Assembly (NCBI GenBank): GCA_051362555.1
Contig: CM120645.1
Location: forward strand, 9,982,001 to 10,046,000
Reading direction: 5' to 3'
Length of the DNA stretch: 64,000 bases
DNA from: Lingula anatina
Taxonomy: Eukaryota > Animalia > Brachiopoda
Part shown: positions 28,427 through 55,228 of the stretch, piece after piece
Position numbering within the stretch: the stretch's first letter is position 1
Layout of the letters: every line of letters starts with the position of its first letter
The notes under the pieces: model-generated
Told to the model about the DNA's origin: nothing
Database searches by the model: none
What the model saw: the letters and a program-made list of their open reading frames with translations, nothing else
Position numbers and translations under genes: made by a program

Positions 28427-29517
28427 TTAGTTTGTTTCCATATCATTTTCCTCCCTCTGTGGAATCTGTGGTGGCTTGTAAATACAAGCTTTTATCTGAT
28501 GTAGTGAAGGGTGGATCCTAGAAACAATGCTTCTCTGCACATTAAACGGTTCCAAAACTGAACCAACTACAATTCCAATGATACACATTTGGCCATTAAG
28601 CAATTTCACAAACACCGCAGATCCAGAGTCCCCTTTCTGAGAAAATGGCTTATCATGTGTGGCATAAACATTTATCATATTTTTAAATCTTTCACTATGA
28701 CCAGATGTCTTATCCACAAAGGTAATCTCTCTGCAACAAGCAACCCCAAGGCCGAGTTTTCCCTCTGTCCACCCAGTGGTTTTTCCATATTTGTATGCCA
28801 AGGCATGCTCAGGAAGCAGATCTACGTGTCTAGTAACCACATCATTGAACGTTTCAAGTGATTCTAATGGAAATAAGTTGCCTTTGGCATTCTTATGCAA
28901 TTGCACGAGTGCTATGTCTACACCACATTTAATCACATTGCCATCCCCATCATCATGTTCAACATTACCTACATAGCATTTGCTAACAATGCCACATCTT
29001 TTAAAATTGTTTTCAACAAAAACAGGAGTGCCAATTACTGTTTCAGGACGTCTATCATAAGGGCAAAATACATGGGAACATGTAACAAATGCCTTTGGCC
29101 TGGTTGAGGCATGGTTACCCTCATCTTTCTCCACAAATAAACCAAGACTACCAGATTTATCAGAACCTACAGCACTTCCAATATACAACTCACAATGATC
29201 ATCTCTGTTTCCTTCATTGTCAGCATGAAGTACAAATGTTCCTTGCCTGACTTCAACTGGATATTCCTGAAGTTTTTTTGGAAAGTCTGAAATATTAGTC
29301 ATGTCACTGCAGTATATTGCAATGCAAGGACTGCTCTTTCCATCTTCATCTGCTTGTTCTCTTGAAAGAGAGATATCTATACACGAGATGTTGGAAAATT
29401 GATCAAATAGTTCATCACAATTCTTTTCGATGATAGCTCCCATTTTCTTCCTTTCATCACGGGAAATGAGCTCTCTTGTCATCATATCTAAGACTTCTTT
29501 CTCCACGGTTCTTTCAG
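28427..29517 (-). CDS. Terminal exon: Nal1/Ssy5-like trypsin-fold serine protease with N-terminal accessory domain
   Basis: GSLGLFV, FVTCSHV (His), VDIALVQL (Asp), [24 protein letters not shown] (Ser), IIGIVVG; upstream [21 protein letters not shown] resembles the Nal1-type N-domain. Confidence 0.88.
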
Positions 29518-32500
29518 CTATGAAGAAAGAATCAGAAATAAAGCAATATGACCAAGATAATATATACATTTAGATACAATGTTTAGCATTAAAATATAAT
29601 CAAAATTTACTTAATTGATACTTTGAAACGCTACAATATTTAGAAGAAATTTAGAGTAAAACAAAAATATGATTTGGTAGTTATGGGGCAAATGTCACCA
29701 ATATTGTGCAAAAAAACAGTCTGAGAATAATTACCATAAATGTAAACAGATCATGCTGACTTTAGAAAGCAACCTGCTTCTTTGCCAAACAAAGCCACTC
29801 AGCAAATTTAAAGTAAAACAAAATTATTGAAACCCAGGGGCAACACCAGGGCCAGAAACTTTCAAAATTCAGTTCTTGGTGAAAAGTGGCTCAATGGTCA
29901 ATTTCAAGGTCACTGTAAGATTGGCAGTAAATGACTTCCTATTCAAGTTCAAAAGTAACTAAGGACTTATCTCTAATTGTAACCCCTCACCATAACATGA
30001 GAGCTTAGGTCTGTGTAGTGTCTGAAAATTGGCACAAACAAAATTTTTTTGCAGAAAATTCCCATTTTTAGAACATTTTGGCCCTTTTGACCTTGAAATA
30101 AAAGTCAAAGTTCAAATCCAAGGGCATATTTGGAATCTCCACATATGACTGTTGGGCAGACTTCAAAATTCGAATCCCAACTCCACTAAAATTTCCAAAT
30201 TACCCATGAACATTATTTATGATTGGTCTATCAAACCCAAAAGTTTGACCTGTATTTTACATATGTTGATCAATCCTCAAAGTTTTACGACAGTAGGCTC
30301 CATCAGTTTTCCTTGAAATGCATACTTTTTGAAAAATAATTCAATCATGCAGATTTTCAAACAAGACCTATATTTTATCAATATTCATCAGTGCTGCAAT
30401 TTTAAAGAGGGGAAGAAAGCAGAAAATCCAACTCAAACACCACGGTATCAAGGAATTTTCAGCAAACAAAAACAGGAAATCAATGATTTAATAAGGCTTT
30501 TTAAAATTTATGTTTCATGAGCCTGTAGAGCTTCATGGTAATTTACCTTCAGTATCACTTGGTAATGTAGTGACAGGTGGAGTAACACCATGCTCCTGTA
30601 GAAAAAAAGAAACCCTGGTGATCAGATAGTTAGATTATTCATTTATTTACAAGACAAATGCAATTCACTAAGATACATTTAATATTTATGTACAAGTTAT
30701 GACTGAGCTATGCTTCCATTACATATTTTCATAACTTACCTTCTCACTTGTGCCTGGCATAAACCATAGTCTGTACACTGAATCCTCTGGCATCCCACAT
30801 TCTGTGAGATCAGTCTCTTTAGGATCTATTGCCATCAGTTCATCTCTGACCTTTGGCTTTCTTGGGTCTCTGACACACCATTCTAACTGCAAATGTGGGC
30901 AAACAGTCTGCTTAACTTGCTGAATTTGGTTTAAGACATGGTTCTTCCACTTCACATATGCCTCTCGGATTGTTCTGTCAAACTTTGTCCCTGTGGGATA
31001 TAAAGGGATCAGTTCAATGCAAGAGGATTTTGCTGACTTTCTCAAAGCACAACGTGCTCTTCTTCGTGGATCAATTGCAAAAACAGCATAATCATAATAC
31101 AGCTCATTTTGAATGAGAAAAAAGTCCCCTCTTCTTCTTAATCCTTTCCTACTTGAAGATGTGTCATTTTGGGCTAATTTTGATGTAAGCTGGTTGAAAA
31201 GCACATGTGGCATAAAGTTCTCTTTCCCTTGTATGAAAAGTGTTCCTTCACTGCCAACCAATTCCGGATTCTTGCATATCTGGAGTAAGCTGGGCACATA
31301 GAACTGTCGAAAAGTAGGCTTTTCTGCTGTACCTGGCTTGATGTCCTGTTGCAAAAGAATGTTGAATTGCACCATAACACCGATTAAAATGGGCTTCAAC
31401 TCACTGTCATCTCCCCAAAGCTCATCCAAAAGTCTTTCATCTAGGATGCCCCTCTTTAATGCAGACCAATATGGAGTCCCTTTGGTTTTGACATGGTGTT
31501 TATCAACTGCTATAATAGACCTGAATGCGTCTATCAGCCACAGTGGATTCAAAATGACTATGTCTGAGAGATCATCAGTCTGAAAGTGCATAAGATCTCC
31601 AATGTCATGATGGAACTGGAGGAATGACTTCAGCTCAATGGCATCCTGCATTCCAACTTTAAGAGCTAATTTTTGCAGCTCCTCATACTTTATCCACCTT
31701 TTTTCTCGTTTCTCAGGTGCTTGACGCAGCTGAAGATCTTCTTCTAATCTAATCCATCTTATTGGATTCTTCTCTCCCCAAGATTTTTGGCTTTCAGCAA
31801 TTTTCATAACATATCGACGGAGATCTGATATTTCTTGATCTTCATCTTGACATGTGTTGTCAATTGCAAAGAAACGAGGATCAACATGCACACCACTTTT
31901 CTTCTGTTGTATATGATGCCGCAATTTAGCAAAGTACGCATTTATTTCTTCTTCATGCTATAAGAGAATGGGAGAAACAGTTTTTCAACACATTGTAAGC
32001 TGCAATCACATATTCTATCAATCATCATAATTGCTTTTTTTCAGAACAGTTTAAATTTTTTTTATTTTTTGTTTCAGTAATTATGCCTACCTTTTCTTTG
32101 GGAACATTTTCCAGGAATTTGTCTTTATGCGTGCAAGCGATGATTATTCGGGGAGACAATACCCCATCTTCACTTAGGTTTTGCTGTGGTGCATAAGTAT
32201 GGATTATGTCTATCCAATAATAAGTGAAGTCTGGAAATATATCAGACAAAATTCAAAATGTACTTTAGTAACATTTTTTTTGCTGTTTGAACTGTTTGAG
32301 TACAGAAAGATGTCTGGTTATATGATAACTTTTTAATATTCTTAAGGCAAAATATATTATTCATATTTAGCAAAAATATTTACTTGTAAGAGCAAATTCT
32401 GGACAAGGATGCATTGTGATGAGCACCACACCTAGACCAGTGCACCTTCACAGGGGCGGATTTAGGCCGTCTTCTAGGTCTTACAGAAGACGGTCAGATT

Positions 32501-35500
32501 ATTAAGTTTACTTTGACGGGTATCTTATATTTTCTGTCAGAAGACGGTCAAAAACTGAGGACGAATTAACAAAGATAATTTGGAAGACTGTAAGAAAATA
32601 TCTCTGGATCCGCCCCTGCTTCAGATAACAAAATTTACATGGATTGAGTTGAGATCATATGTGGCCTATATCCAAGAGATGGGTACACAGGCCCTTGAAG
32701 TCTAGGAGGACAAGTGGTGATGGTGTATGGCAGCAAATACAGCGGATATGGTGGACAAGATGGGACGGGGCTAAAACCACGTGTTCCGGCAGTGTTTACA
32801 CTGGTGTTACAATTATAGTTGACATTTCATAACTGCTAGCTGGTATTTAACAACATAATTGGTAGTGAAATGATTTTATAAACATAAAAGCCCTTTCCGT
32901 TAAAACGCTTGTAATGAGCCATGAATTTCATACTGCTCTTAAATTTCAAAAATCTTAAAATTAATTTTGACCAGTAAGCAGTTTTGCGGGATCTTGATTT
33001 TCCTGAATCTCACACACCTTAAAATCAGCAATTGAGCTATTTTTGTGCTCAAAAAGCCCTAGCCTGCATTTACCCAAGTGCTGTGTGGCCCAAGGTGCAA
33101 GATAACGATCGGTACAGTTAGCTTTGGATGCTAAACAACATTGTCATCACAATTCATTAAGATAACAAGAGAATCTATAAAGAGTTGCACTGTCACTCTG
33201 TCGTTTCTTAACCGGAGTACTTGGCGTGAGATAGCAATCGGTAGTTTTTCTGAGGCGCACATTAGCATTGCCAACAGTAGGGACTTCAGTAACAGAACAA
33301 AAGAAGCAATTAACAGCTGCAATTAAGATTACCATTATTGCTTTCTTGTCTCACTCAGATTGTTCACGATCTCCTGCTGAACATCCCCCGCTAATGAAAT
33401 CCCTTGAACAAATATGAAAACTGCCTTCTCATTTCGATCTCCTGCTGATGATCTTCCGCTAACAAAGTCCCCTAAACAAATATAAAAATTGCCTTCTAGC
33501 ATGGACAAAATTTCCAAGCTTCTAGGCTTGCTTGGATCGATGAAGATCTCCTGCTGATGAATACAGCAACAAAGTCCCTTGAACTAGTATGGAAATTGCC
33601 TTATCGTCACGCTCAGATCGCTCACGATCTCCCTTGACGAACTTCCAGTCCCTTGAACGAATATGAAAATGGCCTTTCTGTCTCATTAGGTGTACCAAGA
33701 TTCTTTTCAAAAATCAAGACAAGTTTCTGGCTGATAGAATGACTTTCAAAAAAATTACACTACTGATAACAATGCTGTTTTGCATCCCTAGCCAACAGTA
33801 CCGCTCATTATCTAGCACCTTGGGCCGTACGTGTATCCCTTGGGTTGCAAATACTGACACTCACCCATCATACATTATGGTAACTGTAAATAGATCATTG
33901 GGGGAAGATAACATAAGGTCTAGCGACAAACAGACAACTTCTGGTCAAAATTGACAGAATTCCATGAAATTGAAATGCTTGGAAGTTCTGAGCACCTCCA
34001 TTTCATGAATTTCGACCAAAATAATCTTTTCCCAAATTTAATTATTTTTTACTTTACAAAATTCATGGCACATTAGCGTATATACTCACTAGCTGACAAA
34101 CAGTTGTGAGCTGGTGGGTGTCTTACCAAGAATAGTTCCTGAGAAGTGTTCAGCTCCTTGCCATTGGTCATCTAGCCTGTCTGTTAAAGCAAGGCTCATA
34201 TCAATGGCAAGAATGTAAATAGCTCTGGAAGAAAGGAATGTGTGGTGGGTGTTGTAATACACACTTTGCCCTCCAAAATCCCAGACTGCTAGACGAGCTG
34301 GTGGATTTTCAATGTCGTACGAGCTTTCTGTCAAATGTTTTAAGACATCAGGCGGGAGCTCCAAAGCCTCCTTGGAACTACTAGGGCTGGGCTGATGTTC
34401 TTAAAATATAAATGAACAAAGTTCACATGTTTCAGTATTAAAAAAGATTAAAGACAAATTTAATCATTTAAATGTATGAACTACAGTATAAAGCTAGAGG
34501 GTTGTACATGGTGATGGCTTGATCATTTAATCAGAAAAATAATTTTGGAATAACTAAAAATTACTAAGTAAATAAAGCATTTTGGTGCTTTTACTGTATA
34601 AAATGGTCTGCTTTTCAATTGTGCTGCTACCACTCAATAGGAATGTACGAAGTTAATGAATTTATAACATAAAAAACAGAATCTTTTAAATTCACAATTT
34701 TCCCTTTTTGAAATGATCAAGCCATTAAATTATGCAATAACATGCTTTGCTAAAGTGGGTGAGACACATTTAGGATAAAACATTTTGCCACCTTTCCTTT
34801 ACCAATTTTTACATAGTTGACAAGGAATTTTAACATAATATGTAGCACATAGAGACACCCAGTATAATACTGCATGGTGTATTCGTTGTCTTGTGTTATT
34901 GTCATACTAATTTTGATCAAGGGAAAATGGACCACCTGCCGCACTGTGCATCCTAATCTGATATTGCATAATGATGGAAGTTAATTATAAGTTAAGAAAA
35001 TTGTAACAAATGTTTAAATTTGAAAGAACCTACTGTACCCCTTTCCTTCTCATGTTATACTAAAATTTGTCCTTCCATTTCATCTTCGAGTCTTAGAAAA
35101 ACTTACCATAAAAAAAGAAATAAACACCATGATATGCCATTAAAGCAAATTGGAAAAAAATGGCATAACTTAAGAAATTTGCAAAAATGGTCTGATCATG
35201 CTGATCTATGAACTTCACCTGTATTTTTGTAAGATTTATCACTCCTGTGAGTTTCAAGACAATATGCCTATCGGTTTTCTTGAAATGTGTTATAAGTGAC
35301 ACATAAATGCTGAAAAAAGGCCCAACATGCTGATTGTTGACCTTGACTTGTATTTAAGGAATATTCATCAGTTCAGTAAGTATGAAGACAAAGGGTGAAT
35401 TCCCAGAGTTTTAGATTGATCCAGAGATTTAGGCTTCGTTCACATGCAATGTCTATTTTCTAAATTCTATTTTCTCGCGCTATCTTATGATCACGGTCTG

Positions 35501-38500
35501 TGCCCTGAATATCCCGCCGCGTAATTACTAGCAGCGCGAGCCAGTTACTTATAGTAACTTATAGTAACTGGCTCGCGTTGCCAGTAATTACGCCGCTGCC
35601 AGTAATTACGATATTCAGTGCACAGACCGTGATCATAAGACATACCGCGAATAGAAAATAGAATTTAGAAAATAGACATTGCATGTGAATGAAGCCTTAG
35701 ATTTAGATGGACCTAACTCCCTGGGGGTTCACGCTAAATTGCAGTCAGCCGAGCGCACACCCCTACAGCTTTAAGTAGGCGGGACAGACGCTTAAGCTGG
35801 CTAAGCTAGTGAGACTCTCCACAGGGACAGATCGATCTAAAATCTATGGAAATGGGGTCAAAAGGTGAAAATGTGAAATGTTTTTCCACTTATCGTGGTA
35901 CTATATATCACTGATATATGCAGTTATATTTCTGCTAGATAAATCTGTCTGCCAGCTGAAAACAAAAGTGGATGGCCTTGGAGAAATATTAGTTTAGATG
36001 ATGTTGGGTGCTACCACTGTGCTCCTATATTTTGTTCATAGTGATCAATACCATCTTTATCTGAACAGACGGGCTTCTTTGTTAGGCACAAGCAGGCAAG
36101 GACAAATGTGAACAAAAATTGACTCTCATCTCTCATAAGACCTCATGTTGATGAAGGACATGATGTTATTTCAGCCAGTTACATGCACACAGCTTTGTCT
36201 TCATCTGGAGTTATCAGACTGCCATGCAGCTGTTGTGGAAAATAGGGAAAGGTGCACAGTCAATTTGAATTTTCACTGTATAAGTGACAGGTCCTATGTC
36301 AGCTGCCTTAAGCCATGATAGTGTTCCAGTTGGTTGAGGACTGAAGCAAGTTGGAGGATAAAGAGATTCTCTAGTCAAGTCATTTCTTCTCAGTGAATTT
36401 AAGAAACGAATTACATCAGAAAAGAAAAAAGATCCAACTGCTGCCTTTCAAGAAATGTTGAATAAAAAACAAACATGAAACTGTTCAACAAGGATGCTTG
36501 GCTGAATGTTCATCAAACCATTGGTTATTTTTTCATGTTTAAATATTATAATGAAGAAGCAAAGAAGAATGCCCTCTAGAGGCAAACATTAAAGAAACAG
36601 ATCAAGGAAATGTTAGGTTTATGAAAAGACAAATATACATAATAGGCTTTTTTAGTTTAACTTAATTCTGTGGCCACATAAATTCTAGATATTTTAGCAC
36701 AGTGTCATTCTGCTAAGAGCAGATTATAAATAAGTCAATTTTTTTCATTGGGTTTTTTAAAACTTGTGATGATGTATATAATGTACATATAAGATGTGTA
36801 GAATGTGACCCTGTATAAGTATTTGCACTAGAAGTTTTCAGTCGAGTGAATGGCTGTTGTCTTTTTAATTTCTCATAGTTGATCATGGTGCCTTTTTATT
36901 TTTTAAATCATAATAAACATATATTTTTTCTTTTAAAGCAATTAAGTTTTCTTTGAACAAGAGATGGAAATATTTAAACAAGGCAGCAAAGCTGTCAAAT
37001 GTACAGACAAAAGACAGGAAATAACTATGCACAAAATAGGCTACTGTCAATTCTGATGCTAAAGTACATTATGTTAAACTGCAAATTCAACATCAAATTT
37101 TAATTATGCTCAACAGGTAATACCAATGTAAGTAAAATGTGTAACAAGTTCACACTTTGAAAATATATAACTTCCAGAAAAAGAAGCCAATTAGACTGCT
37201 TTTCCAACTCATAAGTAACATGGCAATCATAAGTAACATGGTTTTCCCATGATGGTCATCATGGCAGCAGCACCCAAAATTGTGTTTTCTTCTATTCTGA
37301 TGCAATATTACATAATGGTTAACAGCATAATGACTGTCAATTTTTAATAATAAAATATACGTATCATGGATTTTCAGAAAAAATGACTAGCATGGGTCTT
37401 CAAGCCCGTGGAACTTCAAATTCACACCATGAAAATGCCAATATGTGAAAAATTAAATTTTCACAAAAAAAAAAAAAACGTTTTACTGGCAGTAAGAATT
37501 ACCAAACAGACTGCATTGCCTACTGAAGCTGTATTTTAGTCCCATGTTTCTTTCCTGTAAGTTTGAGAACAGTAAGTGACATGGTTTTTCTTAAATGGTC
37601 ATCATGGGAGCAGTGCCCAAAATAGTTTTTTTTTTTAAATTTTGATGCAATATTACATAATGTTTAACAGCAAAATGACCATCAATTTTAATAATAAAAT
37701 ATTAGTATTATGGATATTCAGAAAATGTGACTAGCAAAGGTCTTCAGGCCCTTGGAACTTCAAAGTCACAACTTGAAAATGCCAAAATGTAAACAAGACA
37801 GCAATGTTCTGAAATGTTTTTTTTTCCAGTTTTAACAATTTCTAACATAAAACAAAATTAACAGTTTACTATCGTTTTTATATGATCAACTAAGAAAATT
37901 GATGAAATGGGAAAAATATTAATAGAGCAGTGTTAAATGTCCAATTTCTTCCATTCTGAGATTCTGAACATAGTGAATGATTGAATCTGACAAACTGCAA
38001 TGATATGAGTTTATTTCCATTTTTGAAACTTTATTACACAATACACATTAAAAAGTTTACCATTATTTTTACATAATCAAATAATGATGTTGTAAAGATG
38101 CAGGAAATGCCAAACAAACACTTTTACGTATCTTATTAATTAAAAATTGAAACTGTTAACATGCCTAAGAATTTAATCTGAGGAAATGTGAAAAAACGGC
38201 ATTTCTTTAAAATAATGGCCCGATTATGCTGATTTTCGAACTCAACCTGCGTTTTAGTAAGATTGACCACTCCTGTGAGTTTAATGACAATTGGCCTATC
38301 TGTTTTTCTTATATTGTGTTTACAGTGTTGCATATATGCTGAAAAATGAAAAAACAGCATAACTACTAAAATAGTGGCCCGATCATGCGGATTTTCGAAC
38401 TTGACCTGCGTTTTAGTAAGATTGATTACTCCTGTGAGTTTCATGACAACTGGCCTAACGGTTTTCCTTAAAATGTGTTTACAGGGTTGCATATATGCTG

Positions 38501-41289
38501 AAAAGTGAAAAAACAGCATAACTTCTACAATAATGGCCCGATCATGCTGTTTTTTTAACTTGACCTGCGTTTTATGAATATTCATCAGCTCTGTAAATAT
38601 AAAGCCAAAAAGTAAAACTGCCCTCCACTTATCGTGTTTGAAGGAAAGTGCATGGCGACGGCATCGGCGACGGCGCCGACAGACGCAGGTGATGGCAATA
38701 TGTACAGACACATCTGTGTCTGTACATAAAAACAAACATCATTTAAATTGCATCTGAATTGAGTGTTTCAATAAAACAATAAGTTAAACTTGAAAAGTCC
38801 ATAATATGATCTGGGCTCCATCTTTTGGGGACAGGGAAACTGGGTCCCTTGCTACTAACCTCCCAAACAAATTGTGGACCTTTTATATTTATTTTATTTT
38901 TATTTTTTTGTAACCCAAACTTATCGGAGAGTTGAAATCTAACCCATTTAATAAGTGGTAAGACCACAGTTCAAATGTACCCCGTATTTGAGAGTTTGAA
39001 ATGGATGAAGTATGGCACTTTGTACAGAATCTTAATGGGGGTGCTAATATTACACAACCAAGGTAGCATTATGCAACAGTCATAGGGCTCATTCCTGATA
39101 AAACTTTTGTTCTAGGTAGACCTATCCAACTCCAGGGGTACTCTGGCTGAATGCTATCAGATATACACCCACCTACAGGTACAGTACTTGCATTGAGTAG
39201 AATACAGAAAAGATGGTGATGGTAAGAATGCATAGGAAACAAGAAGAGACGTGATAGTCTGTTAACCTGATTGCACTCAGCAAGAGTACCCGTGGGGTTG
39301 GATTGATCAAGGTAGAATGAAAGCATCATTGAGAATGTGCCCATAGCACTGGCTAGCCCATATTTTTTACATTTTTACCACATTTTGAGAGGTATCCAAT
39401 TTTTCACACATTTCCTTGAGTGGCCCCAGCTTAAAGATCACTATGTCCAAGTTTAAAAGTCTTCAAATTACTTAAAGGGATAATAACTCTTCATATGAGA
39501 TCTGTATTTCACAGTAAAAACATTGTGAATAACTCATGGAAATATAATATATTCTGTTTTACCACAAAAATGGCAGTTATAGCTATTATTCTGATTTCTG
39601 AGCTTGTCTTTAGACCACGTGACCTCCACTGATGGCTATACTCTGTTAAAATCTCTTAAGAGATTTTAACAAAAAACCAAGCTTTTTAGAAAAAAACCAG
39701 GGACTAACTTTGAATGTAAAAATGGATTCATTAACCATTGGTTAGTATGGAAAAATTGTTGTTTACTCTAGGAAAATTCATTTTTTAGCCGAAACGAAGA
39801 GCTTTAATCCCTTTAAATAAACATATGTTGAAATTTTTTAAATACATTTGTTATGTTTATTTGGGGAAACACTTCTTATTATAGTAACAAATTCCACTGG
39901 ATGAAGTGCATTCCACCTGCATAGGCAGTGAGGAAAGACAAAAAGTAGGTCAAAAATCTCTATTTTCTAGGGCATATATCTCCCAACCCATAAAAGGTGC
40001 AGTAATATTTTTTTTTAAATTGATAAAACTATTAGTATATCCTTTGTTGATAATCGTGCCAAGTTTCATGAGTCTCCCCCCCGATCCCATATTTTTGCCA
40101 AGAATGGATATTTTTTCATTTTACTTCACAGAAGCTTATAACTTCTTAGGACACATCTTCACACCAATTTGGTTGAATTTCTCGTTAAATGGCACTTAAT
40201 TAGCTCATTTAATATTCATGTGACCGGGTCATTATGTCATCAACGGAAATTTCAACTCTTTACATTAAGACCCTGGTATCTGAACGAGGGAATGAAACTA
40301 CATGCTTGCTGTGGTTTCATTGTCCCGCGAGTCTGGAGGAAACAAAACAAGATTGGGTCATAACATCTGTGATTACATGCATGCTCAGATGACAGGATGT
40401 CTTTACACATTGTTGTTTAATAAAAAGCAGACTATTTCAGATGTTTAAATACTGAAAATGAAAAATTTGTTTAGATAGCTTTGTAATTAAGTTGAAAACA
40501 GAGTAAAGCACAACAACCCGTTTTCTTCACCCAGCAAAATTTGTGACAAAGTAATTTTTTTTCAAGTGTGTGGGTTAAATGATCCCTGATATGATGAAAA
40601 AAAACATGACAATACTTTACTGAGAGCTTTCTTTTCCGTAATGAATAGCTACAAAATGGCCTGGTATATCTGTCTCCCAGATTAAAGCGCTGTATTAGTG
40701 TCATTTTCCGCTAATAATTAAAAAGTTTAAAATACAATGTTTGGGAACACAAATTTGTTTGTTATAATATGACAAATCTAACACGTATAGGAATATTTTG
40801 ACAGACTTTCAAAGATGATAACCCCTTGCTGTTACCCAGTATTGTGGAAGTGCAGACATATATATATATATAATGTGATACTCACCTCCAAGCGAAAAAA
40901 ACAGCTTCTTTTCAAAATCAGTATCATTGCATCTGATATGAGTCAAGTGCCGCATATTTCTGGGTAAATCCTCAAGGGAGGCATCCAGCAGGATAGGGAC
41001 AACGATGTCTTCACTCATCTCGGCAGCATAATGCAGCGCCATATTTCTTTCCTGCTTGCACCAAGGACTTGTAAGAAAGTCCTTGGAAAGAAAACAAATG
41101 ATGTACGTGCATTTTTCGAGGGCTTCATTAATACAAGTCACTGTTGAAGTACCTGGGCGGAAATCTCGTTTTGAGTAGCAGCAGCTGACTCCCCTTTTCT
41201 CCAATGTGTCCATGACACTTTCCACAAATTCAGCATCAACATTACTGTGGGCCAAAAATGCATCATACTTGTCTTTGTAAAGTACTTGC
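28427..41289 (-). CDS. Multidomain Roco-family protein: TIR - ROC (G3-G5) - COR - Nal1/Ssy5-like trypsin-fold serine protease (5'-partial, about 1057 aa)
   Basis: Exons 41289-40886, 34399-34127, 32230-32091, 31957-30740, 30595-30547 and 29517-28427 all have AG/GT boundaries and matching phases (1,1,0,0,1), giving one open frame to the stop at 28427. The TIR-to-ROC junction spans a 6.5-kb intron and is the least certain link. Confidence 0.8.
30740..31957 (-). CDS. Exon encoding ROC G5 region and COR domain
   Basis: FFAIDN (G5), [63 protein letters not shown] are typical COR motifs. Confidence 0.9.
32091..32230 (-). CDS. Exon encoding ROC G4
   Basis: YWIDIIH...[11 protein letters not shown] matches the ROC G4 consensus P.IIVGTH.D. 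Confidence 0.88.
32400..32815 (+). mobile_element. Degenerate 3' end of HINE family B with a 168-bp TIR mini-element inserted (32451-32618)
   Basis: Homologous to 48958-49209 (CCACACCTAGACC, GAGTTGAGAT, ATCCAAGAGATGGGTAC, TCTAGGAGGA). The insert has TIR CAGGGGCGGAT/ATCCGCCCCTG with CTTCA on both flanks. Another family B fragment lies at about 29860-30150. Confidence 0.75.
34127..34399 (-). CDS. Exon encoding ROC G3/switch II
   Basis: [33 protein letters not shown] is the ROC hallmark WDF.GQ..YY.TH..FL...A.Y.L..D. Confidence 0.92.
35432..35696. mobile_element. Hairpin MITE (PIF/Harbinger-like) with TTA target duplication, nested in an older MITE
   Basis: GGCTTCGTTCACATGCAATGTCTATTTTCTAAATTCTATTTTC.. 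is inverted at the right end; TTA at 35429-35431 and 35697-35699. Confidence 0.88.
36977..38730 (+). mobile_element. HINE family A element
   Basis: Starts AACAAGGCAGCAAAGCTGTCAAATGTACAGACA; ends with (GACGGC)n plus ATGTACAGACACATCTGTGTCTGTACAT hairpin; about 160-bp internal repeats. Confidence 0.85.
40886..41289 (-). CDS. Exon encoding a TIR domain (TIR_2-like)
   Basis: KYDAFLAHS (box 1), [10 protein letters not shown] (BB loop), [28 protein letters not shown] (alphaC Glu), [17 protein letters not shown]. Confidence 0.93.
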
Positions 41290-41998
41290 CTGGAATGAAA
41301 AATATCACTTCTTTATTATGAGGCCCATAATTTAGTGTGAATAAATAGCTTGATGACATATAGTTTAATAGATAGGATAAGATAGAGAAGCATTACAGCA
41401 TTGGAAAAGGAGACATTTTCAGGTGTGCAAATTTTGTGAGCATAACGACTGATGGAACCTCTGACTACACCGAGGAAGTATAAGAATCGATGTCCATGGG
41501 GCTATGGAATGTCTTATGGTAATGGGTAAGTAATATTTTACTTTTCAAGTGTAAGGGAATGTTTGTTGTTTGGGAAAAAAAAACAGCTTGTATAGTCTGT
41601 AAGGATAAATGCCTGTTAACTTGGGAAAAGTACATAAAGTTAATATTTTGTATTGTTATATTATATAGGGTCACCTGAGTCAGCTACAGGACGTGACATA
41701 TGTTCATTGTTATTGCATTAACAGTTATGTTCAGACGTTAAAGTTTATTATAAGCAATATCACCAGCCCTCTCAGTGAATATATGGTAATTCTCTATCTT
41801 AAACAGAGGACTTATTAAACTCAATTCTGGAATCTTGGCTTTAAAAACTTTGATGAAGAAGAGGGAGAAATGGAAGAGGTAAATGTCCTTGTATTTTTTT
41901 TTTTTTTTGAAAAATCAGTAAAAAAAAAATTACAATAATGGCACAAATTAGTAAGATGTATATTAAAAACATTACAAAAATAGTGAATTGAACATATA

Positions 41999-44900
41999 AA
42001 CAAGGCAGCAAAGCTGTCAAATGTACAGACAAAAAAACAGAAAAAAAAGATGCAAAATAGGTCATTTTGATTCAATAATAAATGCTTATAATAGCAGTCA
42101 GTCAACACTGATTTTTAATCATGCACAACAGGTAACATGGTCAATAACAGGAGCAGATTCAGAGATATTTTCTGACAGTATTCCAAAGTATCTTTGTTGA
42201 TCCATCCTCCATTTTGATAGTCTTCCAACAGAAACCCATTAATATAAACTTTAAAATCTGGCTGTCTTCCAGGAGACCCAGAAGATGGTCTCAATCCACC
42301 CTTTCAATAAGATTACAATGTCAGGACCATGAGAGTTAAAATTCACATGATGAAAGTCCCTATATATGAAAAATGATGACAGTGCATAAAATAATATTAC
42401 AGCGTGTTTAAAGACATAAATACCAATACAGCTGCTTATGTGGAAATACTGAAAATGTGCAGAGCCTCAGGTGGATGGGAGCTAAAAATCACATCTTAAA
42501 AATGCCAGTGTTGGAGAAAAAATGAAATAGAAACAACAAAAATATAATTCCAATGAAGCTGTTATTCACTGCTTCCTTATTATGGACACTATGTTATCTA
42601 GCAGAGAGCTTAACAGGGAAATATCAACAAGTGTGCTTTATGAAATTTCAATTAATGGCTACTTAATTAGGTAAATGAGTTTATAGCACTGAAATTAGCC
42701 TTGTGAATACCAAAGGGGAATTAACAGACTGACCACACAAATTTGTCTATCAAAGGTCTTCAGGCCCATAAGTCACACCTTAAGAAAAGCAGAAAACAAT
42801 AATGCACAAAAACAGGAGACTGCCCAATTCTGATGCAATAATACATTATGTTTAACTGCACAGTCAACATAAAATTTTAATTATGTACAACAGGTAACGC
42901 TGATGAAAGTAAAAGCATAAGGCTCCAGGCCCATCAGAGTTCAAGTTTTCAATTAGAAAGTGCCAGAATGAGAAAAATGAAAATTTCACAAAAAATGCAT
43001 AAATTTAATAAAAATGATAACCCAATTGACCTGGCTTTCTAATTTTAACTGCATGCCAATCCTAAAAATCATACTTATAAGTTAAATATAATAATAAGTA
43101 ACACAGTTTTCTTTTCGTAATGTTTGCAGTAGCAGTGCAAAAAGATTATTGTCAATTTTGATGTAACATTACATAATAAATTATAGAATAATTATCACCA
43201 ATTTTTGATTATTGACTATAAATAGCATGGACATGTAGAAAATTTGATTACCATTAGGCTTCATGTCCATGGGAGCTCCGAGTCCCACAATGAATATGCC
43301 AAAAAGATAATGAATATTTCACTAAGTGTATAACTTCCAGAAAAAGAAGCCAATTAGACTGCTTTTCCAACTCGGGCTGCATTTTAGTCCTGTGTTTCTT
43401 TTTTGAAAGATTGACAGTAATAAGTAACACGGTTTTCCCATAATGGTCATCATGGCAGCAGCACCAAATATTGTGTTTTCTTCTATTTTGATGCAACATT
43501 ACATAATGATTAACAGCATAATGACCATCAATTTTTAATGATAAAATATACGTGTCATGGATTTTCAGAAAATGTGACCAGCAAGGGTCTTCAAGCCCAT
43601 GGAGGTTCTAAGTCGCACCTTGAAAATGTCAATAAGTGAAAAATTAAATTTTCACAAAAAACTGTTAAATTGCCAGAAAAATTTACCAAACAGACTGCAT
43701 TGCCTACTGAAGCTGTATTTTAGTCCCATGTTTCTTTCCTATAAGTTTGAGAACAGTAAGTGACATGATTTTCCTTAAATGGTCATCATGGGAGCAGTGC
43801 CCAAAATAGGGGTTTCTTCAAATTTTGATGCAACATTACATAATGTTTAACAGCATAATGACCATCAATTTTTAATTATAAAATATTAGTATCACGGATA
43901 TTCAGAAAATGTAACTAGCAAAAGTCTTCAGGCCCATGGAACTTCAAAGTCACATACTGAAAATGCCAAAATGTAAACAAGACAGCACTGTTCTGAAATG
44001 GGTTTATTTCCATTTTTAACACTTTTTTAACATAAAACAAAATAAACAGTTTACTGCCATTTTTATAAGACCAATGAAGAAAATTGATGAGATGGGAAAA
44101 GTATCAATAGAACAGTGTTAAATGTTCAACTTCCTCCATTCTGAGATTCTGAACATAGTGGATGAATGCATCTGACAAACTGCAATGATATGAGTTTATT
44201 TCCATTTTTGACACTTTATTACACAATACATGATAACAAGTTTACCATCACTTTTACAAAATCAACTAACAATGTTGTAAAGATGTAGGAAATGTCAAAC
44301 ACTTTTACGTATCTTATTAGTTCAATAATGAGACTGTTAACATGCCTTAGAATTGAATGTAAGGAAATGTGAAAAAACAGCATGACTTCTAAAATAATGA
44401 ACTGATTATGCTGATTTTCAAACTCAACCTGCGTTTTAGTAAGATTGGCCCCTCCTGTGAGTATAATGACAATTGGCCTAACTGTTTTTCTTATATTGTG
44501 TTATCAGTGTTGCATATATACTGAAAAAAGTGAAAAAACAGCATAAATTCCCTATAAGTGACCCGATCGTGCTGATTTTCGAACTTGACCTGCGTATTAT
44601 GAATATTTATCAGTTCTGTAAGTTTCAAGCCAAAAGGTAAAATGGTTTTCCAATTATCGTGTTATCGGTGCTGCATATATGCTGAAAAAAAGAGAAAAAA
44701 TAGCCTAAATTCACTAAAAATGACCCAATCACGCTGATTTTCGAACTTGACCTGCGTATTATGTATATTCATCAGTTCTGTAAGTTTCAAGCCAAAAGGT
44801 AAAATGGTTTTCCACTTATCGTGTTATCGGTGCTGCATATATGCTTAAAAAAGTGAAAAAACAGCATAAATTCCCTATAAGTGACCCGATCATGCTGATT

Positions 44901-45460
44901 TTCGAACTCGACCTGCGTATTATGAATATTCATCAGTTCTGTAAGTTTCAAACAAAAAGAAAAAACAGTTTTCCACTTATTGTGTTATCGGTAAAAGTGC
45001 ACGGCGACGGCGACGACGGCAACGACAGCGACGACAGACGCAGATGACGGCTATATGTACAGACACATCTGTGTCTGTACATAAAAACAGCATAACTTCC
45101 CTAAAAATGGCCTGATCATGCTGAATTTCGAACTTGACCTGCGTATTATGAATATTCATCAGTTTTATAAGTTTCAAGCCAAAAAGTAAAACGGTTTTCC
45201 ACTTATCGTGTTATCAGTGCTGCATATATGCTGAAAAAAGTGAAAAAACAGCATAACTTCCCTAAAAATGACCCGATCATGCTGATTTTCGAACTTGACC
45301 TGCGGATTATGAATATTCATCAGTTCTGTAAATTTGAATACAAAATGTAAAACGGTATTCCACTTATCGTGTTATCACTGAGTGCACGGCGACGGCGACG
45401 GCGACGACAAACGCAGGTGACGGCTATATGTACAGACACATCTGTGTCTGTACATAAAAA
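41999..45460 (+). mobile_element. Long HINE family A element with duplicated 3' end
   Basis: Same termini as other family A copies; microsatellite plus hairpin occurs twice (about 45001-45085 and 45385-45460). Confidence 0.85.
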
Positions 45461-45535
45461 GCAATGATGAATATTTCAGAACATGCCAGATACTTTTGGA
45501 GACAGTTATGACAGTGTCTACTATTCAGAAGATGA

Positions 45536-48500
45536 AACTAGAGGATCAGAGAGGCGATACCGCCTCCGAATATTGTACCACCAGCTGGAGCAAGCGCATT
45601 CGTATAGACCCCCACATACACAAAGTAAGGGACACAGCCACCAGTCTTGTGCTTGACAAGCTGTAAAAATGCAATCAACAAGAATTTTCAAAATATGCAA
45701 AAAATATATATAATTTAAAATGGTACAATCAAAGTTAATTCATCGTAAGGTAGGTCAAAGGTCAATTTCAAGGTCACAGTAAATTGCCAGTATATGACTT
45801 CCTTTTCAAGTTTAATAGTAACTATGGACCTATCTCTGCCAGTTTTGGAGATAAAAGGGAATCAAAATTTGCAAAGTTCAGTTCATGGTGAAAAGTAGGT
45901 CAAAGGTCAATTTCAAGGTCACAGTAAGATTGCCAGTATATGACTTCCTATTCAACTTCAATAGTAACTATGGACCTATCTCTGCCAGTTTTGGAGATAA
46001 AATAGAAGCAAAATTTACAAAGTTCAGTTCATGGTGAAAAGTAGGTCAAAGGTCAATTTCAAGGTCACAGTAAGATTGCCAGTATATGACTTCCTATTCA
46101 ACTTCAATAGTAACTATGGACCTATCTCTGCCAGTTTTGGAGATATAAGGGACTAAATGTTATAATTTTGGAGTTACCATAATGTGCCATAAATTTCCTA
46201 CAGAAAAAATTAATTAAAATAAAGAAAAGGTAATTTTGGTCAAAATTCTTGAAATGGGAAGTGTCTTGAAGTTCGAGATGTTCAAATTTGATGATATAAT
46301 GTCATTTTTGACCATGAGTTGTCTGCTTTGCCAAGCCTTATGTTTTATTTTTCTGGAGTTCAAAATTTATTATCCATTACTGTACTGCGCATTTTGCTTT
46401 CACCACCAATATATACTTTTTGATACAGCGTAACTTTGGAGATAGAAGGGAAGCAAAATTTGCAAGTTCAGTTCATGGTGGAAAGTAGGTCAAAGGTCAA
46501 TTTTAAGGTCACATTTAGATTGCCAGTATATGACTTCCTATTCAACTTCAATAGTAACTATGGACCTATCTCTGCCAGTTTTGGAGATAAAAGGGAAGCA
46601 AAATTTACAAAGTTCAGTTTATGGTGAAAAGTAGGTCAAAGGTCAATTTTAAGGACACAGTAAGATTGCCAGTATATGACTTCCTATTCAACTTCAATAG
46701 TAACTATGGACATATCTCTGCCAGTTTTGGAGATAAAAGGGAAGCAAAATTTGCAAAGTTCAGTTCATAGTGAAAAGTAGGTCAAAGATCAATTTAAAGA
46801 TCACAGTAAGATTGCCAGTATATGACTTCCTATTCAACTTCAATAGTAACTATGGACCTATCTCTGCCAGTTTTGGAGATATAAGGGACTAAATGTTATA
46901 ATTTTGGAGTTACCATAATGTGCCATAAATTTCCTACAGAAAAAAATAATTAAAATAAAGAAAAGGTCATTTTGGTCAAAATTCTTGAAATGGGAGGTGC
47001 TCTGAAGTTCGAGTTGTTCAAATTTGATGAAATAATGTTATTTTTTTTTTACCATGAGTTGTCTGCTTCGCCAAGCCTTATGTTTTATTTTTCTGGAGTT
47101 CAAAATTTATTATCCATTACCGTACTGCACATTTTGCTTTCACCACCAATATGTACTTTTTGATACAGCGTAACTTTGGAGATAAAAGGGAAGCAAAATT
47201 TGCAAAGTTCAGTTCATGGTGAAAAGTAGGTAAAAGGTCAATTTTAAGGTCACATTTAGATTGCCAGTATATGACTTCCTATTCAAGTTCTATAGTAATT
47301 ATGGACCTATCTCAGCCAGTGCTGGAGAAAAAAAGGGAAGCAAAATTTGCAAAGATCAGTTCATGGTGAAAAGTAGGTCAAAGGTCAATTTCAAGGTCAC
47401 AGTAAGATTGCCAGTATATGACTTCCTATTCAACTTCAATGGTAACTATCAACATATCTCTGCCAGTTTTGGAGATAAAAGGGAATCAAAATTTGCAAAG
47501 TTCAGTTCATGGTGAAAAGTAGGTCAAAGGTCAATTTCAAGGTCACAGTAAGATTGCCAGTATATGACTTCCTATTCAAGTTCAATAGTAACCATGGACA
47601 TATCTCTGCCAGGTTTGGAGATAAAAGGGAAGCAAAATTTGCAAAGTTCAGTTCATGGTAAAAAGTAGGTCAAAGGTCAATTTCAAGGTCACAGTAAGAT
47701 TGCCAGTATATGACTTCCTATTCAAGTTCAATAGTAACTATGGACCTATCTCTGCCAGTTTTGGAGATAAAAGGGAAGCAAAATTTGCAAAGTTCAGTTC
47801 ATGGTGAATAGTAGGTCAAAGGTCAATTTCAAGGTCACATTTAGATTGCCAGTATATGACTTCCTATTCAAGTTCAATAGTAACTATGGACCTATCTCTG
47901 CCAGTTTTGGAGATAAAAGGGAAGCAAAATTTGCAAAGTTCAGTTCATGGTGAAAAGTAGGTCAAAGGTCAATTTTAAGGACACATTTAGATTGCCAGTA
48001 TATGACTTCCTATTCAAGTTCAATAGTAACTATGGACATATCTCTGCCAGTTTTGTAGATAAAAGGGAAGCAAAATTTGCAAAGTTCAGTTCATAGTGAA
48101 AAGTAGGTCAAAGGTCAATTTCAAGGTCACAGTAAGATTGCCAGTATATGACTTCCTATTCAACTTCAATAGTAACTATGGACCTATCTCTGCCAGTTTT
48201 GGAGATATAAGGGACTAAATGTTATAATTTTGGAGTTACCATAATGTGCCATAAATTTCCTACAGAAAAAAATTAATTAAAATAAAGAAAAGGTAATTTT
48301 GGTCAAAATTCTTGAAATGGGAGGTGCTCTGAAGTTCCAGAAGTTCAAATTTGATGAAATAATGTTATTTTTGACCATGAGTTGTCTGCTTTGCCAAGCC
48401 TTATATATATTTTTTTCTGGAGTTCAAAATTTATTATCCATTACCGTACTGCACATTTTGCTTTCACCACCAATATGTACTTTTTGATACAGCGTAACTC

Positions 48501-49209
48501 GAAAACCGTATGGAATACAAAAAAACGGAGACCACCTCCAGTGTTGGGCTTTACATGCTCTACAAAATGCAAAAAAGAATGGGACTCTAGCATTAACGGT
48601 TCCCGAATTAGAGACAGTTTTCAGTTTCAATATCTTATGGCCGCTACTCCCGTGAAAATGCACCGATTGACCCCAAATTCACGGAGATGAAAGATGACCT
48701 GAAGGGTAACAACTTCCAATAATATTTTTGGTTAAGTCTGTGTGGTGTCTGAATAACAGGGCAAATAATTTTTTTTTCGTAAAAAAATTAATTTTTTTGA
48801 AAATTTTGGCCCGTTTGACCTTGAAATAAAGGTCAAAGGTCAAATCCAAGGGCATATTTGAAATCTACACATATGACTTTTGGAAAGCCGTCTGTAGAAA
48901 TTTTTCCCATAATTCCTTCCGTAGGGTAGATAATTAGCATTTAATTTTGCCATTTTTAGACAAGGGTGCATTGCAATGAGTGCCACACCTAGACCCCAAT
49001 ACCGACAAAGCCCAAATTTTACGTGGAACGAGTTGAGATTATAGGTGACCTAAATCCAAGAGATGGGTACGGGGGCCCTTACTGTCTAGGAGGAGAAGCG
49101 GTAACGGTAGCCGTCCGGCGGAGCCGGCGGAACCGGCGGAGCCGGCGGAACGATCCGGACGGGACCGAAACCATGTGTACCGCCAGCGCTAACGCTGGTG
49201 GTACAATAA
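45536..49209 (+). mobile_element. HINE family B element carrying 146-bp satellite monomers and about 300-bp spacers
   Basis: 5' end AACTAGAGGATCAGAGAGGCGATACCGCC; 3' end (GCCGGCGGA)n then the hairpin TGTACCGCCAGCG-CTAA-CGCTGGTGGTACA; TACCGCC is shared by both ends. Confidence 0.8.
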
Positions 49210-49819
49210 CTGAAACTAAAAGTTAATAAAAATCTGGCAATATATGCTGCAAAATCCCATGGACTTGAATAAAAGCCTTTTGATCAACCTGTCTGACTTT
49301 GTTATTCACCTGATAAGGGTTTTAACTACTTTGATAGCACAACTTCTTAAAACATCTATATATACTGTTTAAATGAATTATTTATATTTGGGCTAGTGTT
49401 TTTTTAGACCCTGCTGCTAGTAGTCTAAAAAGCTTTTGGCACTGACTGGGTAAATGGGGAGAACATAGGCCTTGATGGGATTTCAAAATAGTCATTTTTT
49501 GTTTTGTTCTTTCTATTTCAGGACCCAGGCACAAAAAAAAAAAAAAAAAAATCAATCCCCCCATCACCAATAGTCTAACAGCTTAGACGGTAGGGTCTGC
49601 TGTGAAGTGGTGCCCCAAGCAGGAAAAGTTGTCACTAAAAAGCAACATCTGGCACACCAAAAATAATACCAGTTTCAACAGGTTACTAGCTATTAGCACC
49701 CAGCTTCTTGGGTTTGCTGACCCGTTGTGAATGTTCCCACTATTTTGGACTCTGCACACCCCACTAGAAGGCTTGAAAAAGAAAACAAGGCAGCAAAGCT
49801 GTCAAATGTACAGACAAAA

Positions 49820-52800: not shown

Positions 52801-54118
52801 CATGTAGCAGACATTATTTTTGCGGGAGACATATGGCGAAATATATTAAGCATTGAAGCAACGCTTGTATTTATCAGGTAGAACTGCGGGGTTATTAGGC
52901 CCTGTTTTACTGTTTTAGTAGCACATAATAGTTTTTAACATCTTCTAGATGCTTCCAGTAACTTTAAATGGACAATTATCCGCAAACACGTGTCTATTGT
53001 CGGCCTGTATACTTGATTGTATACATTAACTTTCTCGGGTATTGTGTTGTTTTTTATTGCCTATAGCTGCGATCATGTACAAGTAGGTTTAATGTTTTGT
53101 TATACAGACACCAATATGCCACTTACAAATACAGAGCTACAAAAACACTACAGAGAAAGAAAAAAAAATCTAATGACCGCGAAGCTTTTCTTGTGAAAGA
53201 TTTTGAACTGTTTAAAGGCATGACATAATTTAGACTATAGAGTTTTACCTAACCTCTGTTACTAAGATTATAAATTAAACTCTTAATCTGGTAAAATATG
53301 GAATGTGAATTCTACAGATACATCGATCAACATATTTGCGGTGAAATGTATCCAGTAGCGGTACATGTATTCATGTAGTCCTTGAAAGAAAGCAAAACAA
53401 CCCGTTGTAACAATTTGCCATTTATTGGTTTGAATAAACATGTTTTATCAATTTTTCTGTTATTATGTAACGTTTGTCGTATCTGTAATACTACAAATTC
53501 CGAATTCAGCCTCTAAAGCTAAGAAATATCAAAACAAATATGATCGCTATTAATGACCTAACCTCCGTTACGAAATTACTCATTTTTCATTTGAACATTG
53601 GATATGTGTGTGCTCATTGATCAATGCTCATATCATAATGGATTGATAGCACTTTGTTCATAAACAAATAGTATGATAAAAAAGCAAGTCTGTCCCCAAT
53701 GATTAATAAAATATTCAAATTACAATATCTCAGGCTTTGTATTTATAGAAAACGAACCACTTATTACCAATGTGTTTGCACTGCATTTTCTATAATTGAA
53801 GAGAAATCTTAAATGGGCAATAAAATTTTGAATACATACAAAATCTTAATAATTGAATCAAATATGGAGCCTGTGACCTTTGGCATGATTGAAATATAAC
53901 CTAATTTAGATGTTACCTAACCTCTATAACGAAAAAAATACTGTACCATGTTTACACGTGCATATTTCTTTAAATACAGTAATGGTGTGGGTTAAAATTC
54001 TTCTACTACTCTCTGAATACCTCTTCATCAAAATAATATAAAAAGTTTTCCAGTTTTGCAAAGTTCATATCACTGCATTTCTTGTTTTGGAATTGTACCC
54101 CTTTTCGTGGAATGGCCG
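49820..54118. mobile_element. Non-autonomous TIR DNA transposon (possibly Sola-like), itself interrupted by a HINE-A copy
   Basis: TIR C(A/G)GCCATTCCACGA.AA.GGGTACAATTC at both ends, AAAA on both flanks, six dispersed CTAACCTC.GT.AC-like motifs inside. Confidence 0.75.
50949..52770 (+). mobile_element. HINE family A element (young subfamily, near-identical to 15291-17163), 3' hairpin collapsed
   Basis: Matches the reverse complement of 15291-17163; ends GGCTATATGTACATAAAA, a deletion between the two TGTACA of the hairpin. Confidence 0.85.
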
Positions 54119-54945
54119 AAAAAAAAAAATTAAATTAAATTTAAAAAAAAATAAATAAATAAATAAAGATGCAAAATAGGTCATTTTGTCAATTTTGATG
54201 CAATAATAAATAATGCTTATAATAGCACTGTCAGTCAACACTGAATAATACCAATCATGCACAACAGGTAACATGGTCAATAACAGGAGCGGACTCAGAG
54301 ATATTTTCTGACAGTATTCCAAAGTATCTATGTTGATCCATCCTCCATTTTGATGGTCTTCCAACAGAAAAAAAAATAGATACCGGTCAATACAAGGCAG
54401 CAAAGCTGTCAAATGTACAGACAAAAAACAGAAAATAAAGATGCAAAAAAGGTCATTCAATTTTGATGCAATAATAAATAATGCTTATAATAGCACTGTC
54501 AGTCAACACTGAATTTTAATCTTGCACAACGGGTAACATGGTCAATAACAGGAGCAGACCCAGAGGTATTTTCTGACAGTATTACAAAGTATCTATGTTG
54601 ATCCATCCTCCATTTTGATGGTCTTCCAACAGAAAAAAATAGATACCAGTCAATATAAACTTAATAACCTGACTGTCTTCCGGAAGACCCAGAAGATGGT
54701 CTCAATCCACCCCTTCAATAAGATTACAGTTTCAGGACCATGAGAGTTCAAATTCACATTATGAAAGTCTCAATATTTGAAAAATGATGACAGTGCATAA
54801 AATAATATTACATAATGTTTAAAGACATAAAAAACAATACAACTGCTTATGTAGAAATACAGAAAATCTGACGAGCCCCAGGCAGATGAGAGTTAAAAGT
54901 CACAAATGCAAGTGTTTGAGAAAAAATTATAAAGGAAAACAACAA

Positions 54946-55182: not shown

Positions 55183-55228
55183 ATATAATTCCAATGAAGA
55201 TGCTATTCAAACATTTAATCTTCCAGTT

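What the first reader, a model, noticed from the sequence alone, without database searches (positions are those of the whole stretch)
34127..41289. No P-loop between TIR and ROC G3: TIR inserted inside the GTPase fold, or a GTPase-dead Roco
Seen: the TIR exon ends in phase 1 and the G3 exon begins in phase 1, so they join directly. Scanning 34400-40885 by eye found no GxxxxGK[ST] or switch-I exon. The TIR exon starts in phase 2 with no start codon, so upstream exons are needed, and 42-64 kb is almost all repeats. Inference: either G1/G2 lie upstream of the TIR exon beyond the window, placing TIR within the G2-G3 region of the ROC domain where nucleotide state could gate it, or the P-loop was lost and ROC-COR acts only as a scaffold.
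Basis: partly seen in the sequence, partly recalled or inferred. Interest (0 to 1): 0.8.

Follow-up and report, generated by a model that had tools for sequence, protein, structure and literature searches.

The report
Roco gene missing its P-loop exon
In this marine invertebrate genome, an LRRK2-related immune-type gene has a TIR exon where its close relatives carry the GTP-binding exon, so this copy is most likely a recently broken or reshuffled, GTP-blind family member rather than a new kind of switch, although no transcript yet shows how it is spliced.

Summary
On the minus strand a TIR exon (41289-40886) lies 6.5 kb upstream of the G3 half of a ROC domain, followed by G4, COR, a linker and a NAL1-like serine-protease exon; the six exons read as 1058 codons without an internal stop. 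No P-loop or switch-I exon exists in the 29.6 kb upstream of G3. The closest relatives are Lingula anatina paralogs; two of them show that this half of ROC is encoded upstream of G3 and is 71-82% conserved, so it would have been found. G3-G5 show no decay (110 of 114 residues identical to the intact paralog), so any loss is recent. Best reading (0.45): recent deletion or exon reshuffling in a fast-turnover Roco family, giving a GTPase-dead TIR-COR-protease copy that is barely expressed. Rivals: unlinked fragments or assembly error (0.3), intact Roco with a far-upstream P-loop and the TIR exon skipped (0.15), TIR spliced inside ROC (0.1). The last needs a weak second acceptor (41284) and has no precedent among the homologues examined. 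The TIR-G3 splice itself is not shown.

The parts
40886..41289 (-). TIR exon, 404 nt, phase 2 to phase 1; alpha-C glutamate present (WCKQE); alternative acceptor at 41284 gives a 399-nt phase 1-1 cassette
   Evidence: Pfam TIR_2 E 3.6e-23; 77% identical to the TIR of Lingula LOC106170997; best PDB match oyster-type metazoan TIR-STING 6wt6, E 5e-15, Glu aligned; splice sites
34400..40885 (-). 6486-nt putative intron; no ROC N-half; 39% repeated within the window
37160..38638 (.). 1.5-kb dispersed repeat; same-orientation copies upstream of the TIR exon at 43329-44825, 51130-52542, 56063-57568 (about 85% identical), inverted copy at 15555-16982
   Evidence: self-BLAST
34127..34399 (-). G3 exon, 273 nt, phase 1-1: end of the ROC loop, G3/switch II (WDFGG); 9-residue in-frame deletion against P0001, P0002 and P0020
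32091..32230 (-). G4 exon (THKD), 140 nt, phase 1-0
30740..31957 (-). G5 (FAIDN) plus COR exon, 1218 nt, phase 0-0
   Evidence: Pfam COR-A E 9.3e-20; 75-90% identical to four Lingula paralogs
30547..30595 (-). 49-nt linker exon, phase 0-1
28427..29517 (-). Terminal exon: trypsin-fold serine protease, NAL1/S64-like, with His, Asp and GDSG motifs in order
   Evidence: Pfam S64 E 0.034, below cut-off; Atlas scores 0.96-0.98 to Nal1_C/Trypsin/S64 clusters; 27% identical to the C-terminus of paralog P0004; motifs
41290..64000 (.). Repeat field upstream of the TIR exon: 4227 of 22711 nt unique; no P-loop exon and no match to the start segment of the TIR paralog

Best explanation
This is a copy of an expanded Lingula-type Roco family whose P-loop/switch-I exons are absent from the 29.6 kb upstream of G3, likely through a recent deletion or exon reshuffle that left a TIR module next to the G3 half, so that any spliced product would be a GTPase-dead TIR-COR-protease protein. 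Shown: exon anatomy, open frame, absence of the ROC N-half, intact G3-G5, TIR Glu and protease motifs. Inferred: in this family modules are swapped at phase-1 introns (NHL or TIR in front; ZU5 or protease behind); removing the phase-1-bounded P-loop block keeps the frame; the product would lack alpha0, beta1, the P-loop, alpha1 and beta2, could not bind GTP, would have an unanchored switch II but a folded COR, and so could at most dimerise through COR and hold TIR and protease together without the nucleotide switch. Low read depth on its own protease exon suggests a weakly expressed, dispensable or dying copy.
For: No trace of the ROC N-half by motif, tblastn, profile or piecewise alignment, with working positive controls. 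In paralogs it lies in front of G3: P0001 is NHL-ROC-COR with the P-loop at 348 and G3 at 539; P0064 (P-loop part only) and P0004 (G3 onward plus protease) are adjacent models on one 21,765-bp contig. The NHL module is followed by different partners at the same residue in P0001, P0030 and P0031, and post-COR modules differ (ZU5 in P0002/P0003, protease in P0004 and here), i.e. shuffling. In the TIR's closest relative the domain is N-terminal and no ROC is present. 9 of 100 COR-bearing proteins held lack the ROC N-half and 8 of these 9 are Lingula models. Half-ROC is 110 of 114 identical to P0001 against 310 of 347 in COR (p = 0.02) and no exon has a stop (expected P = 0.05 at 2% neutral drift from stops alone), so the event is recent. 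AlphaFold of a natural G3-onward model loses the G3 strand (pLDDT blocks 69 and 58 against 91 and 87) and keeps COR. Protease-exon depth is at most 0.03 in three runs and 0.43 in the fourth, while family-wide COR depth reaches 28.
Against: The TIR-G3 splice was not seen: only 15 of 266 joints were shown and TIR depth was 0.1-3.5. The TIR exon has no start exon in the window either, so something must lie beyond 64000 under any expressed model, and that could be the P-loop. Intact frames and motifs fit a working gene equally well. The conservation contrast vanishes if the G4 exon is included (p = 0.33), and G3 is the slowest part of Roco proteins anyway (PMC6337361, passages). P-loop-less Lingula models are at least once a split annotation (P0004/P0064), so they do not prove real loss. 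No breakpoint was identified; the flanking repeats are only 85% alike. No homologue with TIR in front of ROC was found.
Confidence: 0.45

Rival explanations
1. No TIR-G3 transcript exists: the TIR exon and the G3-to-protease block are separate orphan fragments (partial segmental duplicates), or the assembly has collapsed or mis-joined the repeat-rich interval and dropped the P-loop exons.
For: None of the other parts of the TIR paralog (start segment, coiled coil, C-terminus) is in the window. In run X7 TIR depth (3.5) is about eight times protease depth (0.43) although polyA libraries should favour the last exon. A 1.5-kb repeat lies on both sides of the TIR exon. Several Lingula models start at or inside the G3/G4 exons.
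Against: All six exons keep canonical splice sites, one strand and one open frame. The window has no N and resolves long repeat arrays whose copies differ by 6-15%, which does not look like a collapse. TIR reads at 92% likeness can come from other TIR loci.
Confidence: 0.3
2. The gene is an ordinary intact Roco-protease whose P-loop exons lie beyond 64000, behind an intron swollen by repeats; the TIR exon is a passenger in that intron and is skipped.
For: G3, G4, G5 and COR are undamaged. With its strong acceptor the TIR exon (404 nt) would shift the frame after a phase-1 exon (stop at codon 51), so skipping would be needed. ROC-COR-trypsin-like proteins with a P-loop exist (P0145, P0148; P0004 with P0064).
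Against: Needs an intron above 29.6 kb where a paralog fits P-loop to protease into 21.8 kb. A skipped passenger exon has no reason to keep an open frame, its Glu and both splice sites unless it arrived very recently.
Confidence: 0.15
3. TIR is a cassette spliced inside ROC: P-loop exons beyond 64000 splice to the weak acceptor at 41284 (399 nt, phase 1-1) or through an unseen adaptor exon, placing TIR in the long beta2-beta3 loop of a GTP-competent Roco.
For: The 41284 acceptor keeps the frame from a phase-1 donor through G3. The junction falls in a disordered stretch (pLDDT under 50, residues 466-514 of P0001) of a loop that is already long (P-loop to G3 median 170.5 residues). A clam homologue, P0082, has a Pfam CARD (345-420, E 1.9e-5, 25 bits against cut-off 23.9) between G3 (265) and G4 (about 503), so domains can sit inside ROC. 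G3-G5 are intact.
Against: The 41289 acceptor (CAG|G right after the pyrimidine tract) should outcompete AAG|T (recalled splicing rule). All ROC N-half exons would have to lie more than 29.6 kb away. 85 of 86 P-loop-to-G3 spacings are at most 243 residues, against more than 300 needed. In all 6 TIR-bearing Roco homologues scanned the TIR follows COR. Flexible linkers on both sides make nucleotide gating doubtful.
Confidence: 0.1

Closest known systems
Lingula anatina Roco paralogs LOC106168600 (P0001, NHL-ROC-COR), LOC106157231, LOC106163288, LOC106163537 (ROC-COR-ZU5), LOC106167508/9 (P0064 + P0004, ROC-COR-protease)
   Same: 75-90% identity over the COR exon, same G3/G4/G5 motifs and matching exon boundaries; P0004 also ends in a trypsin-like protease
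   Different: Here a TIR exon stands upstream of G3 and the P-loop block is absent; the protease is only 27% identical to that of P0004; none of these models has a TIR
Lingula anatina LOC106170997 (P0017/P0018), TIR plus coiled coil
   Same: TIR 77% identical over the exon, Glu kept
   Different: No ROC or COR; none of its other segments is in the window
Metazoan Roco proteins with TIR (Neuralized-ROC-COR-Death-TIR P0096, P0115, P0126, P0155; Aplysia ROCO-TIR proteins, PMC9334734 passages)
   Same: TIR and ROC-COR in one gene, presumed innate-immune signalling
   Different: Those held here have a P-loop and carry TIR after COR
Roco GTPases LRRK1/LRRK2 and Chlorobium tepidum Roco (6hlu, 3dpu, 8e05, 8fo9)
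   Same: The intact paralog's model matches these folds, E 1e-16 to 3e-15; COR-mediated dimer and G1-G5 motifs as reviewed in PMC6337361 (passages)
   Different: This copy lacks G1 and G2 in the window, has no LRR or kinase
Brown-algal ROCO families (PMC11378527, passages)
   Same: Expanded Roco family with exon shuffling, truncations or insertions in ROC, and many presumed pseudogenes
   Different: There LRR exons are shuffled; here whole effector modules

Membership tests
Roco GTPases | COR domain directly after ROC | tested here: met
   Pfam COR-A E 9.3e-20, above cut-off
Roco GTPases | G1 P-loop GxxxxGK[ST] and G2 | tested here: not met
   Absent from 34400-64000; sequence beyond 64000 could not be read
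Roco GTPases | G3, G4, G5 motifs | tested here: met
   WDFGG, THKD, FAIDN in order; identical to P0001
Roco GTPases | GTP binding and hydrolysis; COR dimer | not testable with these tools
   No assay; no complex prediction was run
TIR domains | TIR profile match over the whole domain | tested here: met
   TIR_2 profile positions 2-115 of 122; 44 PDB sequences at E up to 0.01
Catalytic (NADase) TIR domains | Glu in helix C | tested here: met
   WCKQE aligns with the Glu of 6wt6; that this Glu is the catalytic one is recalled; bioRxiv 10.64898/2026.04.20.719644 (passages) notes that Glu alone does not guarantee activity
Catalytic (NADase) TIR domains | NAD+ cleavage or cADPR production | not testable with these tools
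   Needs expression and LC-MS
NAL1/S64-like trypsin-fold serine proteases | His-Asp-Ser motifs in order | tested here: met
   TCSH, DIAL, GDSG at model positions 840, 895, 990; motif roles recalled
NAL1/S64-like trypsin-fold serine proteases | Curated family score | tested here: inconclusive
   Pfam S64 13.1 bits against cut-off 23.6; Atlas look-alikes 0.96-0.98, families on under half of members; no PDB match under E 0.5
Domain inserted inside ROC (G2-G3) | G1/G2 upstream and G3 downstream of TIR in one transcript | tested here: inconclusive
   No G1/G2 in the window; no junction read seen; frame possible only through the 41284 acceptor or an adaptor exon

The most novel reading that the evidence does not exclude
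A catalytic-type TIR exon was recruited as a phase 1-1 cassette (through a second AG 5 nt into the exon) into the long beta2-beta3 loop of a GTP-competent Roco, giving a G1/G2-TIR-G3-COR-protease protein in which the GTP-driven monomer-dimer cycle sets TIR proximity, and so NADase output, and protease activation.
Probability: 0.1. Interest if true: 0.65.

Novelty: new variant of a known kind. Interest (0 to 1): 0.27.

Why it matters
If the best reading holds, it is one snapshot of how invertebrate Roco immune genes swap effector modules at phase-1 introns and shed the GTPase half: useful for family evolution, modest in itself. An expressed GTPase-dead TIR-COR-protease would be a natural test of whether COR alone can drive or block effector dimerisation. 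If TIR really sits inside ROC, it would be an effector wired into the G-domain, which I did not find in the homologues or papers searched, and a direct handle on how the Roco nucleotide cycle controls an enzyme.

Tried and rejected
No whole genome is held, so nothing beyond 64000 could be read. No RNA holder listed; nine same-species runs were offered, four were laid once on 28000-44000 (6-25% of each read): repeats swamped the joint and loose-end tables, so the junction stays open. Metagenome scan with the COR exon: 71 pattern matches, 0 relatives. 14 open phase 1-1 candidate exons of 30 nt or more in the intron, 9 of them in the 38324-38719 repeat; none resembles ROC. 67 stop-free frames of 40 aa or more in mostly unique sequence 34450-54200: 2 weak DUF hits below cut-off, nothing else. 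Start segment of P0017 (residues 1-49) against 41290-64000: score 29, shuffles mean 31. The GLTGAGKS match at 9516 lies 19 kb downstream of the stop, profile E 40: chance. One search used two exon coordinates off by one; corrected. The Pfam set of 83 was filtered to P-loop-G3 spacing under 260 residues and so cannot by itself exclude an insert; the unfiltered checks are (spacings and TIR search over all 176 proteins then held). One protein with spacing 1111 (P0025) was not scanned by me; its precomputed domains are Roc, COR-A and Ras. The representative search listed only the best 150 of 40,874 hits and favours colinear proteins. Paper searches 'pseudoGTPase + Roco' and 'NAL1 + Roc' gave 0; the Lingula immune-system paper (PMID 29278680) is not held, and may bear on TIR and Roco repertoires. 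PMC12373286 and PMC7653742 (passages) do not mention Roc or COR. No supplements were read.

Full report
Observation. The window is animal DNA with spliced genes; the nearest proteins are named Lingula anatina by their sources. On the minus strand six exons have canonical splice sites: TIR 41289-40886, G3 34399-34127, G4 32230-32091, G5-COR 31957-30740, linker 30595-30547 and a terminal exon 29517-28427. Joined, they give 1058 codons with no internal stop; junction phases are 1, 1, 0, 0, 1, and the TIR exon starts in phase 2.

Absence of the P-loop. GxxxxGK[ST] occurs 3 times in six frames of the window, never in 34400-64000. The intact paralog P0001 (NHL-ROC-COR, 90% identical over the COR exon) matches every Roco exon here but gives nothing for residues 305-490. 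A profile from 84 ROC N-halves finds three controls at E 1e-22 to 8e-16 and nothing better than E 1.9 in the window. Five consecutive pieces of P0001 311-490 and one of P0064 score within about the shuffle range in all three regions tested, while two 12-14-residue controls are found. Apart from the TIR frame, the minus-strand stop-free frames of 120 aa or more upstream of G3 (4 of 5) are 83-100% repeat. The absence over 29.6 kb is real in this assembly.

What the relatives show. P0064 (P-loop and G2 part alone) and P0004 (G3 onward, ending in a protease) are neighbouring models on one 21,765-bp contig, so the missing block normally sits close upstream of G3. Protein ends suggest phase-1 boundaries on both sides of it (inference from where models P0001, P0002, P0030, P0031 and P0064 diverge). 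Flanking modules vary among paralogs: NHL in front, ZU5 or protease behind. Of 100 COR-bearing proteins held, 91 have the ROC N-half; 8 of the 9 without are Lingula models that simply begin late, and none has another domain before G3. The TIR exon is 77% identical to LOC106170997, where TIR follows about 49 N-terminal residues and precedes a coiled coil; no other part of that protein is in the window. Among 83 Roco homologues scanned with Pfam, 5 have TIR, as does a further one (P0097); in all 6 it follows COR. P-loop-to-G3 spacing is at most 243 residues in 85 of 86 cases, median 170.5. Against my reading, P0082 from a clam has a CARD between G3 and G4, so ROC can host a domain.

Timing. G3 core plus G5 tail are 110 of 114 identical to P0001, COR 310 of 347 (p = 0.02; p = 0.33 with the G4 exon included). 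No stop or frameshift in 3174 coding bases limits neutral drift to about 1-2% (indel rate assumed). So there is no long-evolved pseudo-GTPase here: either the loss is recent or the P-loop exists further away.

Structure. In the AlphaFold model of P0001 (pLDDT 77, matches 6hlu, 3dpu and LRRK1/2) the missing block holds helix 322-333, strand 341-348 with the P-loop, helix 354-361, strand 377-384 and a long helix; the exon junction at residue 491 lies in a disordered stretch (466-514), 43 residues before the G3 strand. Strand names are from the recalled Ras fold. In a model of the natural G3-onward protein P0020 the G3 strand is no longer formed and its confidence falls, while COR stays confident; this is a hint, not a folding test. 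A TIR-G3 product would therefore be unable to bind GTP but might dimerise through C-COR (PMC6337361, passages). The same loop would tolerate an inserted TIR, loosely tethered.

The second acceptor. Five bases into the TIR exon a second AG gives a 399-nt, phase 1-1 exon. From a phase-1 donor it reads through to G3, whereas the first acceptor gives a stop at codon 51. The first is the better consensus (CAG|G after the pyrimidine tract), so I give the second about one chance in five (judgement).

Expression. Four of nine offered runs were laid. Depth on the TIR bin was 0.2, 0.12, 3.5 and 0.14; on the G3 bin 1.0, 9.9, 8.4 and 0; on a COR bin 4.7, 28, 20 and 3.1; on the two protease bins at most 0.03 in three runs and 0.43 in X7. 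At the listed COR sites most reads differ from the window, so they are largely paralogs or other alleles. In the three stranded runs TIR reads point to a minus-strand transcript. The TIR-G3 joint is not among the 15 of 266 joints shown. The animals sequenced may also lack this copy. Expression of this gene is low or unshown; the junction remains open.

Literature. TIR with ROC-COR is reported in Aplysia (PMC9334734, passages); brown-algal ROCO families show shuffling, ROC truncations and insertions, and many pseudogenes (PMC11378527, passages); a Lingula TLR TIR makes cADPR (bioRxiv 10.64898/2026.04.20.719644, passages); AP-GTPases with variable effector ends are described in PMC8195603 (passages). 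Searches listed no report of TIR inside ROC or of a P-loop-less Roco. One earlier scan note (e1-7318350, unchecked) describes another animal Roco without its GTP-binding loop.

Verdict. Observation confirmed; interpretation partly supported. Recent loss or reshuffle giving a GTPase-dead copy 0.45; unlinked fragments or assembly error 0.3; intact Roco with TIR skipped 0.15; TIR inside ROC 0.1. New variant of a known kind, interest 0.27. The sequence beyond 64000 and one cDNA junction would settle it.

Noticed in passing
window 28427-29517 (-): Single-exon NAL1/S64-like serine protease fused behind COR; look-alikes in the Atlas are mostly bacterial clusters; ROC-COR-trypsin-like proteins also occur in clam and lancelet (P0145, P0148).
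   Followed up: partly
P0082 (Mercenaria LOC123526993), residues 345-420: Pfam CARD between G3 and G4, i.e. inside ROC; P0127 has about 160 residues between G4 and G5 motifs.
   Followed up: partly
P0064 and P0004 (Lingula LOC106167509, LOC106167508): One Roco-protease gene likely annotated as two models on a 21.8-kb contig.
   Followed up: partly
window 18430-19584 and 21906-22220 (-): Flavin amine oxidase (polyamine-oxidase-like) gene downstream; Pfam Amino_oxidase E 1e-47.
   Followed up: no
window about 8553-10220 (+): Exon-like frames that read like a class II histone deacetylase (recalled resemblance).
   Followed up: no
window 45780-48214 and 59053-64000: Arrays of a roughly 146-bp satellite, running off the window end.
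   Followed up: no
window about 41421-41526 and 41806-41878 (+): Two exon-like pieces with AG and GT ends on the opposite strand just upstream of the TIR exon; read depth 0 in that bin, no Pfam match in the overlapping frames of 40 aa or more.
   Followed up: partly
window 35431-35697: 270-bp self-complementary (MITE-like) element in the intron.
   Followed up: no
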